This document shows, in pieces, positions 2 through 23,442 of a stretch of 30,556 nt of DNA. How positions within the stretch are numbered: the stretch's first letter is position 1; each line of letters opens with the position of its first letter. Below the pieces are notes generated by a model. That model did not search any database. It was not told the origin of the DNA and saw nothing but the letters and a program-made list of their open reading frames with translations. The DNA comes from a virus. Taxonomy: Duplodnaviria; Caudoviricetes. Location of the stretch: IMG/VR virus record IMGVR_UViG_3300020045_007403, positions 1-30,556 of that record, one strand, 5' to 3'. Made by a program: the position numbers and the translations under genes.

Positions 2-1720
2 AATGGCACCGACACACTCATTGAGTGGAACGATGGTCAATCACGCACGTACAACGCTCATCGTGCGAATTCCACGTATAGCAGGACGGGCGACACGTTC
101 AGAATCCTTGCGGACGGGAATCCGAACGTGATTGGAGAGTTCCAAAATGCAGACCTCGATACCCCGCTTGCAGACGCCGACGCTTTGGAGGTAGCGTTGC
201 AGGGTTTTTTTAGCGGTGCGGTCTCTGGCGGCTTAGTGGCTACCATGACCATTGCAGAATTGCAGGCTGCAATCGCAGCCGAATCGCTAGGCGACTACAT
301 TCTAGGCACTATCAAGGTTTCCGACGCCGGCGACCGTGGCTTGTACCTTACCGTCACAAGCGCATCAACCGTTTCCCTTGAGGGGAATGCTCTCATGTTA
401 AATGCTGTGTTTGGGGGGCAAACGGCGGGGGATGATAGCGACATTGAGACGTTGACGGGAATTGCCCCACAGACCCCATTTTTCGGGCAATGGACACCAG
501 CATTGGTTGGAATGGGAATAATCTATTCTGCACAATCAGGCACCTTCACCGATGGCGAACCAATAAGCAACGGAATTGGGTGGACCGGGGTGTTGATTAC
601 GGATGATGCGGGAACAACGCTATTGTGTTACCAAACATCAACTGGTGAGCCACTTCCGCTCAATGGTCAGACAATCACTGGCGGAACATCGGGGGAAACT
701 GCAACGGTTGACTATTCTTTAAATAACAATCTAGGTGTGGTTGTTACGTGGACAGACACTGCACAGCCAGAGCTTGGGCCGCTACATTACCAACTGGTCG
801 ACTTTCTTGAAATGGACGGAACCGACCCCGCCACCAACACGGCGGCCTACACCGTCCTACCACGTGGAGCCGAAAATTACGGCTACATCGAAGTCAGCCG
901 ACCAGTCAAGTTCAATGTCGCATTGGGCCTCATTACAATGATCGACGGCGGCGGAATCAAGGTTATCAATGATGCAGGATATGCACCCGCATTGTACGGT
1001 TTGCCATTCGGTAGCCCTGCATATTCACAAGTGCTGATCGACAACGGGCAGATGTACTATTACAACTCATTGGGAGCCTCCCACGCCAATATCAAAATTG
1101 CGTCGGGCGGTCAATTGGGCCAAAATTCCACAATTGGGGCGGGTGCGTATCTTGAGAACATTGAACTTGAGCCGAACGCAGTTTTGCAAGCAAGCATCGC
1201 GGCGGATCAATCACTCAAAAATGTCACGGTCAAAAATGGTGTTTTGTACACCGGCAAAACCGTCACCGACCTTGTGGAGAGCTACCAACAGATTACGGAA
1301 TCGGATGCTGTCACAGAGAATGTAACTACGCCACAATTCGACAATTTGGGAAAGCGGGTCACAACGCTTGTAATCCCCTCTGGACTTGTTGGGATTGGTG
1401 CTGGATTTGAAATCCTCGCAGCCGCTCCTGCTGGGTATTACTACTCGGACATTGTCGTGACCGCAATCAGGGCGGCGGGGGATGCTTACACCTCCCAACC
1501 GATGTACATTTCGAGAGATTTGATAACACCTGTAAGCATATTGTCAACAATGGGCACAACAGGCACGACGGAGGCCGTTTGTCAGTTCCAAATCGCTGGC
1601 ACGGGTGAAGACAACGAAGCTGCGCTGGGGGTGTATATCAACACCGACTCGTATGCTGATCCAGTTGGCGGCACAGGTACGCTTACCGTGATCTGCAAAT
1701 ACCACTTGATTGCGATCTGA
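2..1720 (+). CDS. Putative virion structural (tail/fibre-like) protein, 5'-truncated by window edge
   Basis: The frame of ORF 128..1720 is open from base 2 (NGTDTLIEWNDGQ...), so the true start lies outside the window. G/T/A-rich acidic beta-type composition with motif GQTITGGTSGETATV; followed by a terminator. Confidence 0.6.
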   Translation, partial: NGTDTLIEWNDGQSRTYNAHRANSTYSRTGDTFRILADGNPNVIGEFQNADLDTPLADADALEVALQGFFSGAVSGGLVATMTIAELQAAIAAESLGDYILGTIKVSDAGDRGLYLTVTSASTVSLEGNALMLNAVFGGQTAGDDSDIETLTGIAPQTPFFGQWTPALVGMGIIYSAQSGTFTDGEPISNGIGWTGVLITDDAGTTLLCYQTSTGEPLPLNGQTITGGTSGETATVDYSLNNNLGVVVTWTDTAQPELGPLHYQLVDFLEMDGTDPATNTAAYTVLPRGAENYGYIEVSRPVKFNVALGLITMIDGGGIKVINDAGYAPALYGLPFGSPAYSQVLIDNGQMYYYNSLGASHANIKIASGGQLGQNSTIGAGAYLENIELEPNAVLQASIAADQSLKNVTVKNGVLYTGKTVTDLVESYQQITESDAVTENVTTPQFDNLGKRVTTLVIPSGLVGIGAGFEILAAAPAGYYYSDIVVTAIRAAGDAYTSQPMYISRDLITPVSILSTMGTTGTTEAVCQFQIAGTGEDNEAALGVYINTDSYADPVGGTGTLTVICKYHLIAI

Positions 1721-1737
1721 TCCAATCTCGATGAATG

Positions 1738-1767
1738 AAAAACGGCTCCTTAATCGGGGCCGTTTTT
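1738..1767. terminator. Bidirectional intrinsic terminator
   Basis: AAAAACGGCTCC-ttaatc-GGGGCCGTTTTT between convergent genes. Confidence 0.85.
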
Positions 1768-1800
1768 GTTGGCGTAAAATTGGAATAATACCGCCTGTGA
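1738..1800 (-). ncRNA. Candidate ~60-nt small RNA (hairpin + terminator)
   Basis: Minus strand: TATATTTG box (1808-1801), then hairpin GGC(G)GTA/TACGCC (1795-1771) with loop TTATTCCAATTT, then the terminator. No ORF. Confidence 0.45.
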
Positions 1801-1808
1801 CAAATATA
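1801..1808 (-). promoter_or_regulatory. Bacteroidota sigma-70 -7 box (TATATTTG)
   Basis: Exact TAnnTTTG in AT-rich intergenic DNA just after the stop of 1819..2061. Confidence 0.6.
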
Positions 1809-7460: not shown

Positions 7461-7476
7461 AAACTTCCAATTTCCA

Positions 7477-9706: not shown

Positions 9707-10468
9707 TTACTTCTTTTTGAATGCCTTCCAATCGACAAAATGATGATACCGACCGAAACGAATTACCGTTTTTGTATACTGTGGCCATACAGCCTCTAGC
9801 ATTTTTGCCTTGAGTAACTTTTTTTTAGGGTCATTACCTTTGTAAAGATCATCCTGATTGCCACCTTTCATTTTTTGACCCGTATCAACCTTGTCGGCAA
9901 GGTAATAAACACAGCTTGCGGTTTTGCCTCCATTATGAAGAACCTGAAGATTTAAGTCTATATCCTCATTGTACTTCAATCTCCACCTATACGGTAGATT
10001 GTTTTTTATCAACATTGCAGAGTATACATGGCAATTAGCCTTAAATGGTTTTTTGGGAACCCTTACGCAAAAATTCGGTTCTTCAAATCCGCAAATGTCT
10101 ATTTCATTCTTTTCAGTGTATTGCTCTACGTATCTAAGCGCAGGCTTTATGTCTTTGATCTTTAGCCTCTTGCCATTAATCCATTTCATCCACCTAATGA
10201 TATTATCATCGAATAACCAGTGATGACTATGTCCGTGCTGTTTTGAGTGCTCCCAGCAATAGTTTCTTGCTGGATAGCTACCTAGCCCTAAATTCGAGAA
10301 TGGCAACACCAAGACAATACCATCTCCCAAAGCCTTTTGGTAGCTATGTGCCTCTTGCGGCTCAACGGCTATTAAGTAATCTAGACCGCAAGATTGAAAC
10401 AGTTTTGCGGTAAGTGGTTTGTCTGCCCTGCCTTTTGATATGATATAGATCGGGAACTTAGTTTCCAT
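9707..10468 (-). CDS. GREB1/TAGT-like DNA glycosyltransferase (GT-A fold)
   Basis: PIYIISKGRA start, AVEPQE, ARNYCWEHS, HWLFDDNI (DxD-like), RWRLKYNEDIDLNLQVL and MKGGN motifs. Confidence 0.82.
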   Translation of the reverse strand: METKFPIYIISKGRADKPLTAKLFQSCGLDYLIAVEPQEAHSYQKALGDGIVLVLPFSNLGLGSYPARNYCWEHSKQHGHSHHWLFDDNIIRWMKWINGKRLKIKDIKPALRYVEQYTEKNEIDICGFEEPNFCVRVPKKPFKANCHVYSAMLIKNNLPYRWRLKYNEDIDLNLQVLHNGGKTASCVYYLADKVDTGQKMKGGNQDDLYKGNDPKKKLLKAKMLEAVWPQYTKTVIRFGRYHHFVDWKAFKKK

Positions 10469-11075
10469 AGGTTTCAGATAGGTTTACTTGCCATACCGAC
10501 CCAGCCCCTCCATTTGTTTTTTTATATTTTATATCTGGCAATCTTTCATTAAGAAATTCAGCCCCTAGTTCGGGGGTATCAAAGATAAAAACTATTTTGT
10601 GCAAGTTGCTTGCCATTCCCATTGGGTCAAATTCCTCATTCAAATTCAATTCATCTTCATTCATTGAATTGACATCGTGCCCATCCGCCCATTTCGGAGC
10701 ATCCAGTCCCCACTCTCCCAACTCCAAAGCGTCCCAATCCTTGCCGACCAGCTCCCAATCCCATTCACCAAATCCGACATTGTCCTTGATGATGAATTCC
10801 CGCTGTTGATCCTCTGTCAAGTCGTCTGCCATGATGATCGGTACTTCTTTCAATCCAAGTTCCTTACAGGCTTTCAGGCGCATATTGCCGCCAAGCACAA
10901 CCATGTCAGCATTGACCACGATAGGCCGCAGCTCCATCATTTTAGGAAAATTACGGATTGATTCGCACAATTTACGAAACCGTTCATCTTTGATCACTCT
11001 AGGATTGTTCGGATTCGCTTTTATGCTGCCAATTTTTGCCAATGTCCGGCCCAATGTCATGTCTTTTTCGCTCAT
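10458..11075 (-). CDS. ParB/Srx N-terminal domain protein
   Basis: IKANPNNPRVIKD..KLCESI..RPIVVN..VLGGNMRLKA..EFIIKDNVGFGEWD. Start reassigned to MSEKD at 11075. Confidence 0.88.
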   Translation of the reverse strand: MSEKDMTLGRTLAKIGSIKANPNNPRVIKDERFRKLCESIRNFPKMMELRPIVVNADMVVLGGNMRLKACKELGLKEVPIIMADDLTEDQQREFIIKDNVGFGEWDWELVGKDWDALELGEWGLDAPKWADGHDVNSMNEDELNLNEEFDPMGMASNLHKIVFIFDTPELGAEFLNERLPDIKYKKTNGGAGSVWQVNLSETYGN

Positions 11076-11076
11076 A

Positions 11077-11175
11077 TCAATCGTTTTCGTGCGCTTGGCT
11101 GCCTTCAAATCCATTCGAGACGTAGTAACGACAGAAAGCATCCTGCTTGCCCGTAAGCGTCTTATTTTCGCTCAT
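11077..11175 (-). pseudogene. Truncated N-terminal fragment of a second terminase small subunit (Terminase_2-type)
   Basis: Translated by hand: MSENKTLTGKQDAFCRYYVSNGFEGSQAHEND*. It matches the LTxKQxxFCxxY...NxTQA start of Terminase_2 TerS and is ATGA-coupled to the upstream gene. Confidence 0.65.
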
Positions 11176-12294: not shown

Positions 12295-12509
12295 GGCTTC
12301 GGATCGAGTTTAGTTTTCGCGTGGAAAGTGGCGGTATGGTATGAAGTGCCGCCCACAATCGTGGTTCCAATGTCGGCCCCGTCTTGTAGCCAATCCAGCT
12401 TCGCAAGCTCATCCATCGCTTTCTCGACTTGCGCCTTGTTGTTGCCTCTTATCGTGACTTCCATGTGCATCGCTTCCAATTTACACAAAGTTAACGGAAT
12501 TTTTGACAA
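12291..12509 (-). CDS. Hypothetical protein (~72 aa, start uncertain)
   Basis: Fills the operon gap; alternative ATG starts slightly downstream. Confidence 0.55.
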   Translation of the reverse strand: MSKIPLTLCKLEAMHMEVTIRGNNKAQVEKAMDELAKLDWLQDGADIGTTIVGGTSYHTATFHAKTKLDPKP

Positions 12510-15327: not shown

Positions 15328-15812
15328 AATGGTAAGTCGTCACCAGATTCGGTTGTTGCACTTGAATAATGTGTATTGTTTTCTTTCATGGCTTCCATTT
15401 CTGCGGCATCTGCATCCTCTTTCCAATTCGGGTTTTTATCCTCATAATGCTCGCAAGCTGTCGGCATCCTCATAACACCATCTTCACCCCAATTGGCTAT
15501 AAAATGCTCAAAACCAGACTTCTTTGCTTCAAGCCGATATGAATAGAGCTGCATATCCTTGTGAAATTTGCAGTGAAAATAGGTATAGGTTGGGCCATCG
15601 TCCTCCCTGTGTTCATCCCATCCATCGTGAACGATGAGCCTATGAATTACATTGCTTTCTTGGTGTGCTTCCAGGTGCTTGCAATGTTTTAGACATAAAT
15701 GGTGGTTGTTTGGGTTTGAGCTGCATTTAGGCTCGTGGCTTACTGCATGATGCAGCCGTTTATACACCGTCTTGCAAAAATCGCATTCATGCGCTTTAAT
15801 TTCCTTTGGCAT
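15324..15812 (-). CDS. Cys/His-rich putative Zn-binding protein ending in DDLPF
   Basis: Start MPKEIK at 15812 with GGAGG upstream; CDFC..HEPKC..HLCLKHCKHL; SSB-like acidic DDLPF tail. Confidence 0.7.
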   Translation of the reverse strand: MPKEIKAHECDFCKTVYKRLHHAVSHEPKCSSNPNNHHLCLKHCKHLEAHQESNVIHRLIVHDGWDEHREDDGPTYTYFHCKFHKDMQLYSYRLEAKKSGFEHFIANWGEDGVMRMPTACEHYEDKNPNWKEDADAAEMEAMKENNTHYSSATTESGDDLPF

Positions 15813-15821
15813 ATTTCCTCC

Positions 15822-15906
15822 AAAAAATAACCCCAATCAGGGCTATGGCGGTAGCACCTAAAAGGGGTATTTCATTGAAATCGACCGCCATCGATTGAAT
15901 TATTTC
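15822..15906 (-). ncRNA. Structured leader: two hairpins with complementary loops, the second followed by a U-tract
   Basis: AATCGA-TGGCGG-TCGATT and ACCCC..AGG.GCTA-CCGCCA-TAGC.CCT..GGGGT-TATTTTTT; TAGGTTTG box at 15918-15911. Confidence 0.65.
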
Positions 15907-15915
15907 AACACAAAC

Positions 15916-16365
15916 CTACAAATTTTCAGGCACTTTTGCAACCTGTTTTGCTTTTTCAAGCCGCTCCAAATCGGCATCAATTCGGGCCTGAATTACATCT
16001 GGCGACTCAGTTCCTTCAATGAATGCCTTTCTTTTTGGAGTCAAGCAATCTCGAAATGCGATCCCAAAGTACGATTCGATATGCAACTGCAAGCATTTCG
16101 GAGTATGCAACGGCGCACGATCATACGGGCAATAAAGCAGCGCATATACCTGCATTCGCTTATATGCTTCGCGTTTCATCGTTTTTTCCGCCCATTCGAT
16201 TGAATCGCAGGACGTGACAAACGAACGCACGTTGTTTTCGTGCAAGTGCGTCCCCTCTCCCAATCTTGTTAGCAGGTCGCTAAGGCGATCCGTCGGGTCG
16301 ATCGGTACATTATTGGTGTTCGGGCCTTTCTTTCCCGTGGTCACACCCCTTTTTAATATTCCCAT
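15916..16365 (-). CDS. Hypothetical protein, first gene of leftward arm (possible regulator)
   Basis: Divergent from recT; TATTTTTG box 5 nt upstream of the ATG. Confidence 0.65.
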   Translation of the reverse strand: MGILKRGVTTGKKGPNTNNVPIDPTDRLSDLLTRLGEGTHLHENNVRSFVTSCDSIEWAEKTMKREAYKRMQVYALLYCPYDRAPLHTPKCLQLHIESYFGIAFRDCLTPKRKAFIEGTESPDVIQARIDADLERLEKAKQVAKVPENL

Positions 16366-16444
16366 TGCTGCAAAAATAATAAATTAATATTGTATTACTA
16401 GAATTATTTTTGTGTTATGTTTGCAGAAATAAAATTGGAAGTTT
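16366..16444. promoter_or_regulatory. Divergent promoter region
   Basis: Very AT-rich; TATTTTTG (minus, 16378-16371), TATGTTTG (plus, 16416-16423), ATTAATATT at 16383-16391. Confidence 0.75.
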
Positions 16445-21008: not shown

Positions 21009-21596
21009 ATGAAAATAGACATGTCATTTATTCCAGATGGCGAATCAGGGAATTGGAAGGTTTCAACATTTATCGTGCCCGAAAACGATTTTTCACAAGG
21101 ATTGTCAGCTCTCAACTCGGGTCGAAGCGTCCCCGCAGGCACTTACAAATCTCTAACAAGGGGTGGAAAAGTAATCATGAGCAATACGCCCGACGAAATC
21201 AGGGACTTTTACCACTTTGTGAACAGGGCGCACGGCTCTGTGCTTATCAATGGGCTTGGCTTGGGTTGCGTAGTCAAGGCATTGCTTGAAAAACAAGGCA
21301 TTTCCAAAGTGACCGTGATCGAGCAAAGCCAAGACGTTATTTCATTGGTTGCGCCACACTTCGGTGATCCAAGACTGGTAATTGTCCATGCAAATGCTTT
21401 CGACTATTCGCCTCCAAAAGGAGAGATTTTCCAATTCGTTTGGCATGACATTTGGGACGACATTTGCTCCGACAACTTGAAAGAAATGGCAACCCTGCAT
21501 AGGAAATACGGCAAAAGGGCTGGTTATCAAGATTCTTGGGCAAAAGGGCTTTGTCAAAGGCAAAAACGCCAATCGTCGCACGTATTCAGATTTTAA
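21009..21596 (+). CDS. Class I SAM-binding fold protein (spermidine synthase/methyltransferase-like)
   Basis: IMSNTPDE, VLINGLGLG (motif I), VTVIEQSQDVISLV, HANAF, VWHDIW. Start reassigned to 21009. Confidence 0.8.
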   Translation: MKIDMSFIPDGESGNWKVSTFIVPENDFSQGLSALNSGRSVPAGTYKSLTRGGKVIMSNTPDEIRDFYHFVNRAHGSVLINGLGLGCVVKALLEKQGISKVTVIEQSQDVISLVAPHFGDPRLVIVHANAFDYSPPKGEIFQFVWHDIWDDICSDNLKEMATLHRKYGKRAGYQDSWAKGLCQRQKRQSSHVFRF

Positions 21597-21677: not shown

Positions 21678-23204
21678 ATGCTTATTGATTCAGGAAAACG
21701 GCTCATTCTTACGCATCCGCATACGGGACGCACGTTTTTTGTAGGCGATACATTGAACATTCTGGACTGTTGGCAAGCTACTCATGCTTACAAGAATGCG
21801 CTTGAATACGGTTCTACCTATGCAAATGATGGCGGGATTTGTTGGAATCCCGGATCGTACCGAAACAATGAACCAACCGCACTAGACCACCTGATGCACC
21901 ATGAGCCTGTTTGTGGTATGAGCGGCGGCGAGGGCGACTACATTGGGCCTACTGTTGGTGGTGGTGGATTTCCATTCATTACCCCAAATTATGCCCAATA
22001 CAGTGCCGATTTTGGCGGTGAAATCAATTCACAACACGATTCATTTGCACTAGGAATTGATTTTCGTTTTCTATCGGAGGCGGAATTTTCGACCGCCTTT
22101 CTAGGATTCAATTCACTTGGAAGCGGTATCGGAGCAAGGGCGCAACGGCTTAGATTTGTGCTTTGGGAGATGTCAACCCCGACCGTACAGAATCCACAAG
22201 TCGTTGCCGATATTTTCTTCAACTATGGCTATTATGTTGGTATTCCGGGCGCAACGCCACCATTTCCATACATGATTGACCTATCAATGCCAGACGGGGC
22301 GGCGGGTGAAATCAACCAATATCTGATCGTTGACAAAATCAAAGCGGCTTTACGGAAGTCTGGAAGCTCGCAATGTCGGCTCCAATGTATCTATGAATTG
22401 CCCAAATCCTCGACGGGCGGTGCGTGGCCTGTGAACTTTTCATCCTGCTTTGCAGAGCCGATAGTTCATCCAAATTCAGGTGTTGAATATCAATCTTGGG
22501 GCTTGCTTGCGGTCACAATGACGCATTTTAGGAGCGAGACATACACAAACCCAACAGGCGGCGCAATTGGCCCAAATGGACGCATTCAAACGGCTTTTCC
22601 TGTTGTTCCTGAACAAGTCATGGGCCAAAATTCAGGCGGGCTGTTGTTTGCAGATTTGTTCCAAATGGGACGGGCGGCGGTCGGTGTTTCGTGGCCGTCT
22701 GTGATTCAGGGAAAAAGGAGTTTTGGCGGCTTGAATCGGATTGTTTTAGGCGATACGGCACGCTATCAGCAAGGCACACAATGGGCATACGACGATCATG
22801 CAAGCCAAATCCTAGACATTCGTTGCCAATTACCTAGCAATGCAACCCGCTTTACACTAAACACCCTAGTAAAATACCAAAACACAAACGGCGGCTTGCA
22901 CACGATCAAGTTTGAGATCGAACGCGAAACGGCAAATAACGTGATTGGACAAACCCTATACACTGCCTCGTTTAGCACCAATCTAGCACCAACATGGGTA
23001 TGGGTTGACGGTGCATTAGACCCGCTGATGTTGCCAATTTCGGCAAATGTTGAGCATATCCGACTGAAAGTCACGGTCACTAAGTCAATTCCGAGGGCTA
23101 CAAATTGGGGCTTTCCGATTTTTGCGCCCGATATTTATCCACCACAGCCATGCTCATCTATTGCTTGGGATGGTGTTGGAACGATATATTTGGCGTTTAG
23201 ATAA
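21678..23204 (+). CDS. Putative tail/virion protein
   Basis: Long G/P/aromatic-rich ORF directly upstream of the tape measure gene; start reassigned to ATG 21678 after TAACTTTG-GGA. Confidence 0.55.
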   Translation: MLIDSGKRLILTHPHTGRTFFVGDTLNILDCWQATHAYKNALEYGSTYANDGGICWNPGSYRNNEPTALDHLMHHEPVCGMSGGEGDYIGPTVGGGGFPFITPNYAQYSADFGGEINSQHDSFALGIDFRFLSEAEFSTAFLGFNSLGSGIGARAQRLRFVLWEMSTPTVQNPQVVADIFFNYGYYVGIPGATPPFPYMIDLSMPDGAAGEINQYLIVDKIKAALRKSGSSQCRLQCIYELPKSSTGGAWPVNFSSCFAEPIVHPNSGVEYQSWGLLAVTMTHFRSETYTNPTGGAIGPNGRIQTAFPVVPEQVMGQNSGGLLFADLFQMGRAAVGVSWPSVIQGKRSFGGLNRIVLGDTARYQQGTQWAYDDHASQILDIRCQLPSNATRFTLNTLVKYQNTNGGLHTIKFEIERETANNVIGQTLYTASFSTNLAPTWVWVDGALDPLMLPISANVEHIRLKVTVTKSIPRATNWGFPIFAPDIYPPQPCSSIAWDGVGTIYLAFR

Positions 23205-23239
23205 TCGACAAATGTGAGATTTGCAAAAGTTCCTAGGGG

Positions 23240-23278
23240 AAATAAAAAGTCCCCAGTGCTGAAACACTATTGGGGACT
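23240..23278 (-). terminator. Hairpin with U-tract on minus strand
   Basis: Minus AGTCCCCA..AGTG-tttcag-CACT-GGGGACT-TTTTATTT. Confidence 0.55.
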
Positions 23279-23370
23279 CTTAAATATCGTTCTTCAAAAT
23301 TAGGAAAAACTAGATTATATGCCAATGTGGTAGGGATGTTTCTTGCCCGTGGAAAAACGACGGTTTTTGA

Positions 23371-23416
23371 AGTCCTAAAAATAGCATTTAGGACTACTTT
23401 TAGGACTTTTAAGACT
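23371..23416. repeat. TTTAGGACT repeat cluster (1 inverted + 3 direct)
   Basis: AGTCCTAAA 23371-79; TTTAGGACT 23387-95 and 23399-407; TTTAAGACT 23408-16. Confidence 0.75.
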
Positions 23417-23442
23417 CAAGCGAAAATGACTATCTTTGACCT

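What the first reader, a model, noticed from the sequence alone, without database searches (positions are those of the whole stretch)
1738..1808. Candidate trans-acting small RNA whose loop is antisense to the initiation regions of two early operons
Seen: on the minus strand a TATATTTG box is followed by a hairpin (1795-1771) and a terminator, giving a ~60-nt ORF-less unit. It contains UUCCAAUUUUA, mostly in the loop. This is an 11/11 complement of UAAAAUUGGAA, ending 4 nt upstream of the recT ATG (16430-16440). It also gives 9 Watson-Crick pairs plus 1 GU with the leader of the Lar-domain operon (7465-7474). Known: Bacteroidota largely initiate without SD and depend on unstructured A-rich upstream sequence; P1 c4 and P4 CI are precedents for phage antisense RNAs. 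Inference: an RNA made from the late/lysis region, from its own promoter or as a 3'UTR, could silence recombination and anti-restriction operons. I do not recognise it as a known family.
Basis: partly seen in the sequence, partly recalled or inferred. Interest (0 to 1): 0.8.

Follow-up and report, generated by a model that had tools for sequence, protein, structure and literature searches.

The report
Candidate anti-leader small RNA, Bacteroidota phage
An uncultured phage, likely of Bacteroidota, has a 59-base gene-free unit between a promoter-like box and a terminator-like hairpin; its predicted open loop is the exact complement of a short tag just before the start codons of three phage genes, so it likely makes a small RNA that would damp their translation together, though no transcript and no copy in related phages was found.

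Summary
Observation confirmed and extended. The TATATTTG box (1808-1801) is the best held-out match to the phage's own promoter profile; a 4-bp hairpin with a 17-nt open loop and a terminator follow, with no ORF. These rank top 3 of 39 starts; 2 of 131 loop shuffles match the best energy, 0 of 131 the top-three sum. The tag keeps a fixed distance to the AUG, not to the promoter, which favours an RNA-level role. Against: pairing is weak (-6.5 to -9.5 kcal/mol); only 7-8 nt of the 7460 and 12470 sites are likely transcribed from their own boxes; 2 of 3 other box-terminator units also give 9-nt leader matches; two relatives show no such unit; no RNA data; 'late/lysis' timing is unsupported. Best reading (0.55): trans-acting antisense RNA acting as a delayed brake on early genes. 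Not a C4, GibS or FopS member. Closest layout in print: Cluster K start-associated sequences, whose single inverted copy lies in a predicted hairpin loop in Adephagia (my fold). This scan noted similar elements before on other DNA.

The parts
1801..1808 (-). Bacteroidota-type -7 promoter box TATATTTG (predicted)
   Evidence: 8 copies in the window against a shuffle mean of 0.99 (max 5 in 100); this site ranks 9th genome-wide and first among held-out sites with a profile built from 9 other sites; fits TAHHTTTG (PMC6847099)
1809..1832 (-). AT-rich spacer and TTG at 1832-1830, 21 nt before the box (-33-like element, predicted)
   Evidence: sequence; the TTG-N19-21 spacing rule is recalled, not from a call
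1738..1796 (-). predicted small RNA, about 59 nt, no ORF inside
   Evidence: start inferred from 4-5 nt box-to-start spacing and from four window genes whose ATG lies 3-5 nt after the box; no ATG-started frame on the minus strand within the unit (six-frame translation); no Rfam hit at E<=5
1771..1795 (-). 5' hairpin: 4-bp GC stem, 17-nt open loop (1791-1775)
   Evidence: loop bases U13-A17 unpaired at 0.79-1.0; loop stays open in a read-through transcript
1775..1785 (-). candidate seed UUCCAAUUUUA
1738..1767 (.). terminator-like hairpin with U tracts on both strands, between convergent genes
   Evidence: -14.3 (minus) and -18.0 (plus) kcal/mol; not listed by the stricter scanner
16430..16440 (+). 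target site 1 in the recT leader (11 nt), 4 nt before ATG 16445; promoter box 16416-16423 or 16405-16412
   Evidence: recT PF03837 and yqaJ PF09588 downstream
7465..7473 (-). target site 2 in the leader of gene 7460-6603 (C-terminal Lar domain); box 7484-7477; shares 17 identical nt with the recT leader through the ATG
12474..12482 (-). target site 3, 3 nt before ATG 12470 (59-aa gene of unknown function); box TAACTTTG 12493-12486; overlaps the stop codon of the upstream gene
   Evidence: this box is not among the top 25 profile scores
1819..2061 (-). upstream gene (78-80 aa, no relatives found); read-through from it would carry the hairpin as a 3' UTR
2..1720 (+). convergent gene (572 aa or more, no family hit) ending at the shared terminator

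Best explanation
The unit likely makes a 59-nt trans-acting antisense RNA whose predicted open loop would pair with the AUUGGAA tag at the 5' ends of three phage mRNAs (recT-yqaJ, the Lar-domain operon, gene 12470) and would block ribosome loading there. Shown: box, hairpin, terminator-like structure, complementarity, tag position. Inferred: host sigma-A polymerase transcribes it from about 1796; the unpaired UCC of the loop nucleates on GGAA 2-4 nt before the AUG; the weak 4-bp stem may then open so that the 5' arm pairs across or just past the AUG (predicted for recT and 12470). Bacteroidota initiate without Shine-Dalgarno pairing and need an unstructured start region, so the duplex would repress. 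As the RNA uses the same promoter type as its targets, it would work as a delayed brake that builds up during infection (read-through from the 2450-2061 operon could add to it), not as a late-promoter switch.
For: Promoter is the best held-out site. Tagged leaders rank 1-3 of 39 starts and 1-3 of 10 modelled 5' ends, -9.4, -6.5, -9.5 against -5.2 next. Loop shuffles: 2 of 131 reach the best energy, 0 of 131 the top-three sum. 0 of 6882 intergenic windows of two relatives reach 9 nt on all three tags or 11 nt on one. The loop matches the only leader word shared by three transcribed leaders. The tag lies 4, 4, 3, 2, 3 nt before the ATG but 10, 5, 5, 15, 2 nt after the box in the five good cases, three in the window and two in relatives. 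The core ATTGGAA recurs at 3 of 101 starts in relatives, one of them a doubtful ORF; 59 of 5000 shuffles give 2 or more. Precedents read: GibS and FopS repress SD-less Bacteroides mRNAs at the start region (PMC7366714, PMC11697453, passages); C4 loops occlude ribosome-binding sites (PMC5320573, passages); structure near the start tunes initiation in Flavobacterium (PMC6847099).
Against: No transcript data. No homologue of the RNA found: strict pattern 0 in metagenomes and one coding-region match in viral contigs; loose pattern 0 of 127 matches with a terminator, from 6 of 64 parts scanned. Two relatives (RecT 52% and 49%) have no ORF-less unit at the probably syntenic place, although another structured leader is plainly conserved in the same two. 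None of 27 RecT loci examined shows the tag in its leader. Seeds are short and AU-rich; 7460 gives only -5.5 to -6.5 kcal/mol from its own start. The loop does not cover the last 4-5 nt shared by the recT and 7460 leaders. 2 of the 3 other box-terminator units also hold a 9-nt complement to a leader, one of them to two leaders. The 12470 leader entered the target set because it carries the tag. The Bacteroides paper suggests AU-rich sRNAs may need extended seeds.
Confidence: 0.55

Rival explanations
1. Chance complement. The tags come from a promoter-leader cassette copied between genes by recombination; the unit is a terminator region with a promoter-like box, or a small RNA with another (for example host) target.
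For: recT and 7460 leaders are identical for 17 nt, beyond what the loop covers. The same gene carries different leaders in two relatives, and G001 has its own 13-nt word in two leaders with no more than an 8-nt complement elsewhere. About 0.7-1.7% of controls reach 11 nt, and there are four box-terminator units to try. Two more copies of the 9-mer lie inside coding sequence.
Against: The match hits the one three-leader word, sits in the open loop, and 0 of 131 loop shuffles reach the combined energy. A strong promoter box pointing into a terminator 60 nt away still needs a purpose.
Confidence: 0.28
2. The tag is a binding site for a protein: a DNA operator at the start of transcription, with an inverted copy controlling the 1808 promoter, or an RNA site for a translational repressor.
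For: All three tags and the inverted copy lie 3-15 nt downstream of a promoter box. Pope et al. left open whether SAS tags bind RNA or protein.
Against: The word is not palindromic; spacing is tight to the ATG and loose to the box; no DNA-binding regulator was identified among 41 ORFs, and the gene divergent from recT gave no usable hit. The contig is probably partial, so a regulator could lie outside it.
Confidence: 0.1
3. The hairpin works in cis as a 3' UTR element of the 2450-2061 operon, or read-through from the plus strand displays the tag itself in a loop as a decoy for a tag-binding protein.
For: The hairpin folds the same way in a read-through transcript; the mirror stem exists on the plus strand by symmetry.
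Against: The plus-strand terminator lies before the tag copy and is the stronger one (-18.0 kcal/mol), and the predicted plus-strand fold does not form this hairpin; a dedicated promoter box is not needed for a 3' UTR element.
Confidence: 0.07

Closest known systems
Start-associated sequences (SAS) of Cluster K mycobacteriophages (PMC3203893, passages and section 15 part 1 of 2 read; PMC11373665, passages)
   Same: A private, non-palindromic tag a few bases before start codons of non-structural genes, in one orientation, with a single inverted copy away from gene starts (4 of 6 phages in the paper). In Adephagia that copy folds into the 10-nt loop of a long hairpin between genes 92 and 93 (-33.7 kcal/mol, z -4.65).
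   Different: SAS is 13 bp, contains a Shine-Dalgarno core and has 11-19 copies; here the tag is 7-10 nt, has three copies, in an SD-less host group. The papers propose no antisense RNA and say the role is unknown. Pixie shows no inverted copy in the 33 kb examined.
C4 antisense RNA of phages P1 and P7 (PMC5320573, passages; P4 CI RNA recalled only)
   Same: Phage RNA whose loops pair with short sites at ribosome-binding regions of phage mRNA.
   Different: C4 has three stem-loops and two pairing loops and is cut from a longer transcript by RNase P; this unit has one seed loop, its own predicted promoter and terminator, and targets 5.7-14.7 kb away in three transcription units. No Rfam match.
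GibS and FopS sRNAs of Bacteroides thetaiotaomicron (PMC7366714, PMC11697453, passages)
   Same: Short RNAs ending in an intrinsic terminator that pair with the start region of SD-less mRNAs; FopS are sigma-A driven and hit the first gene of several operons.
   Different: Host-encoded, with long single-stranded 5' seeds (30-50 nt for GibS) and metabolic targets; here phage-encoded with a 7-11 nt seed in a hairpin loop. No sequence match in Rfam.
Lambda OOP and P22 Sar RNAs (PMC12197685, parts 1-2 of 6 read)
   Same: Small phage RNAs that repress a phage gene by pairing.
   Different: They are antisense to one overlapping target; this unit overlaps none of its predicted targets.

Membership tests
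C4 antisense RNA | match to the Rfam model | tested here: not met
   no hit at 1738-1808 at E<=5 among 4227 families
C4 antisense RNA | three stem-loops with two pairing loops (a', b') | tested here: not met
   one seed hairpin plus terminator; definition from PMC5320573
C4 antisense RNA | RNase P processing from a longer transcript | not testable with these tools
   no RNA data; an own promoter box argues for a primary transcript
C4 antisense RNA | loop pairs with the initiation region of phage mRNA | tested here: inconclusive
   predicted only
GibS/FopS | R1 seed and family model | tested here: not met
   no Rfam hit; the paper says the FopS structure was deposited in Rfam; whether release 15 holds it was not checked
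GibS/FopS | long single-stranded 5' seed followed by a terminator | tested here: not met
   terminator present, but the seed is a 17-nt loop closed by a 5' stem
Trans-encoded base-pairing sRNA (class) | own promoter, terminator, no ORF, distant from targets | tested here: met
   by sequence only
Trans-encoded base-pairing sRNA (class) | discrete expressed RNA that changes target output | not testable with these tools
   no sequencing runs could be examined
Trans-encoded base-pairing sRNA (class) | seed conserved or covarying with targets | tested here: inconclusive
   no homologue found; relatives reached are only 46-52% identical in RecT and partial
SAS of Cluster K phages | asymmetric tag 3-7 bp before starts of non-structural genes, single inverted intergenic copy | tested here: met
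   three tags 3-4 nt before ATG and one inverted copy; two further sense copies inside genes
SAS of Cluster K phages | 13-bp consensus with SD core, 11-19 copies | tested here: not met
   different word, three start-linked copies
cis-antisense RNAs (OOP, Sar) | transcribed opposite the target | tested here: not met
   targets lie 5.7-14.7 kb away

The most novel reading that the evidence does not exclude
Phages mark chosen early transcripts with a private address tag at the start codon and encode one small RNA that shows the mirror of the tag in a loop, switching several unlinked operons off together without a repressor protein. In Bacteroidota the tag replaces the missing Shine-Dalgarno site as the handle. 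The same logic would explain the start-associated sequences of Cluster K mycobacteriophages, where the single inverted copy in Adephagia is predicted to sit in a hairpin loop.
Probability: 0.35. Interest if true: 0.78.

Novelty: new variant of a known kind. Interest (0 to 1): 0.52.

Why it matters
Trans-acting phage RNAs that control several of the phage's own operons are hardly documented, and my paper searches (open-access library only, listings seen) showed none for Bacteroidota phages. If true, it shows how a phage times early-gene shut-off in a host group that lacks Shine-Dalgarno pairing, and gives a 59-nt scaffold for knock-down in Bacteroidota. The comparison also yields a direct test, in a cultured phage, of a question open since 2011: what SAS tags do. 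This particular case is weaker than that idea, because it has three short targets and no conservation.

Tried and rejected
Relatives through the neighbouring genes: the 80-aa protein has no relative; the 130-aa protein has 21 relatives but no viral contig was confirmed; terminase scans of viral and genome contigs found none; RecT alignment in genome contigs found none; cultured phages gave only 32% RecT matches and chance DNA hits. Leader-word scan: 5 viral matches, none sharing genes with the window. Loose RNA pattern: 121 loci, unrelated, none with a terminator. Sequencing runs could not be examined, so expression is untested. SD role for GGAAG rejected: only 2-3 nt from the ATG (spacing rule recalled). 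A mirror RNA for G001's own two-leader word: best non-coding site is 8 nt at G001:38683 in a structured 3' region; I ran no null for it and judge 8 nt to be within chance. Pairing of the RNA's 5' arm with the replication leader (7 nt, net -3.7 kcal/mol): not supported. The sigma-70 scanner does not cover this promoter type. Rows left out: L154, L161, L162 and L002-L015 were not in the RecT leader check. In one search three starts were provisional (12467 for 12470, and TTG starts later replaced), and 7 of 39 gave no duplex. The 7-mer core was chosen after seeing the relatives, two L145 starts were added by hand, and the G002 box is non-canonical; one search corrects for three 7-mers only. My energies are RNAup-like sums from ViennaRNA, not IntaRNA. 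Supplements were not read; Fig. S3 of PMC3203893 lists the inverted SAS sites.

Full report
Setting. The window is a whole 30,556-base virus record with terminase, tape measure, RecT and YqaJ genes. The host is inferred to be Bacteroidota from the promoter box: TATATTTG occurs 8 times against a shuffle mean of 0.99, mostly just before genes, and TAnnTTTG is the sigma-A -7 box of that phylum (PMC9723704, passages; PMC6847099, section 14). No integrase, repressor or lysis gene was identified among 41 ORFs; the record is probably partial.

The unit. On the minus strand the box at 1808-1801 follows the stop of gene 2061-1819. A profile built from 9 other boxes ranks it 9th in the genome and first among held-out sites. 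With 4-5 nt between box and start the RNA begins at 1796 or 1795, so the hairpin starts at its first or second base. The fold is a 4-bp GC stem with a 17-nt loop, a 3-nt linker and a terminator-like hairpin with U tracts on both strands. The hairpin alone is weak (z -2.0). No Rfam family matches.

The tag. AAATTGGAA occurs 6 times against 1.14 expected (0 of 100 shuffles reach 6): once inverted in the loop, three times in leaders directly after a promoter box (recT, 7460, 12470) and twice inside coding sequence. The recT and 7460 leaders are identical for 17 nt through the ATG. With modelled starts, 7460 and 12470 offer 8 or 7 pairing bases and recT all 11.

Is it chance? An RNAup-like score puts the three tagged leaders first among 39 starts (-8.9, -8.0, -6.4; next -5.8) and first among 10 promoter-driven 5' ends (-9.4, -6.5, -9.5; next -5.2). 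Shuffling only the loop, 2 of 131 reach the best energy and 0 of 131 the top-three sum. By longest match, 66 and 83 of 5000 shuffles (hairpin, loop) reach 11 nt; 11 and 167 of 5000 reach 9 nt in three leaders; 210, 291 and 65 of 30,530 genome windows reach 11 nt, two 9-nt and three 9-nt matches, counts that include this site and promoter-box matches. 0 of 6882 intergenic windows from relatives match all three tags at 9 nt, 19 at 8 nt. There are four box-plus-terminator units in the window, and two of the other three also hold a 9-nt complement to a leader, one to two leaders. So the match is unusual at roughly the 1-5% level after allowing for four tries, not overwhelming.

Relatives. A RecT alignment reached three phages that share several genes: G001 (42.8 kb, terminal repeats, completeness estimate 51%), G002 (19.8 kb, 23%) and L145 (4.3 kb). 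None of 27 RecT loci examined has the tag before recT. The core ATTGGAA does occur 2-3 nt before the ATG of other genes in L145 and G002, and before one doubtful ORF in G001 (3 of 101 starts; 59 of 5000 shuffles give 2 or more). Across the five good cases the gap to the ATG is 2-4 nt and the gap to the box 2-15 nt, which fits a site that matters on the mRNA. At the place that probably corresponds to the RNA, after the homologue of gene 3191-2604 and small genes, G001 and G002 have a terminator and then a promoter for a protein gene, with no ORF-less unit; the synteny is weak (E 3e-4 for the 130-aa gene, none for the 80-aa gene). A different structured leader is clearly conserved in the same two phages, so conserved RNA can be seen at this distance; this counts against an old, group-wide RNA. 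Pattern scans found no homologue.

Mechanism. The likeliest reading is a trans-acting antisense RNA. The most exposed loop bases (UCCA, unpaired 0.79-1.0) face GGAA of the tag. After this contact the short stem can open; predicted duplexes extend over the AUG of 12470 and into the first codons of recT (net -9.9 kcal/mol by co-folding). Initiation in Bacteroidota is SD-independent and tuned by local structure, and GibS and FopS repress such mRNAs by pairing at the start region. Because the RNA and its targets use the same box, timing would come from accumulation, not from a late promoter. All steps after complementarity are inferred.

Comparison. It works like C4 and like GibS/FopS but belongs to neither (see membership tests). 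The closest layout in print is the SAS of Cluster K mycobacteriophages: a start-linked tag with a single inverted copy of unknown role (still unexplained in 2024). Earlier notes of this scan describe many similar tag-and-mirror elements in other phages, some with reported covariation; I could not check their DNA and do not count them as support.

Verdict. A real, well-formed candidate small-RNA gene with a modestly significant, well-placed complement to three phage leaders; antisense function 0.55, chance 0.28, protein site 0.10, cis or decoy role 0.07. New variant of a known kind; interest 0.52.

Noticed in passing
window 15812-15918 (-); G001:23040-23165 (-); G002:11470-11597 (-): Conserved structured leader before the replication operon in three phages: promoter box, about 95-115 nt with two alternative sets of stems, a small hairpin and U tract, then an identical TTTTTTGGAGGAAATATG with an SD-like GGAGG that is unusual for Bacteroidota. 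3 of 12 consensus pairs change on both sides. Looks like a two-state switch or attenuator; no Rfam hit. The real start of ORF 15836-15324 is probably the ATG at its end. In the window it also holds a 9-nt complement to a word shared by the leaders of 18524 and 12933.
   Followed up: partly
L178:30662-30714 (Adephagia JF704105, about 58,660-58,715): The single inverted SAS copy sits in the 10-nt loop of a long predicted hairpin (z -4.65) between genes 92 and 93, next to a second strong hairpin.
   Followed up: partly
G001:31304-31945 (-): Promoter box followed by about 500 nt with only a doubtful 52-aa ORF, then a tRNA with a TTA (stop-reading) anticodon; no Rfam hit at gathering score.
   Followed up: no
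G001:38476-38794 (+): About 320 nt of highly structured non-coding sequence after a gene whose leader shares a 13-nt word with another leader; holds the best (8-nt) complement to that word.
   Followed up: partly
window 23185-23430: Intergenic region between two plus-strand genes with opposing promoter boxes (23185 +, 23302 -), a hairpin with a U tract on the minus strand, and repeated GTCCTAAA words in both orientations.
   Followed up: partly
window 4266, 16365, 19220, 23443: Four genes have an ATG 3-5 nt after a promoter box, so are probably leaderless, a high share for Bacteroidota (5.5% in PMC9723704); the same is seen in relatives.
   Followed up: no
window 9707-11141 and 21009-21596: TET-associated glycosyltransferase family gene (PF20691) beside a ParB-like gene upstream of the terminases, and a methyltransferase: possible DNA modification system.
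   Followed up: no
L020:1477-1510: Unrelated viral contig with the full 16-nt recT/7460 leader word in what may be a gene start.
   Followed up: no
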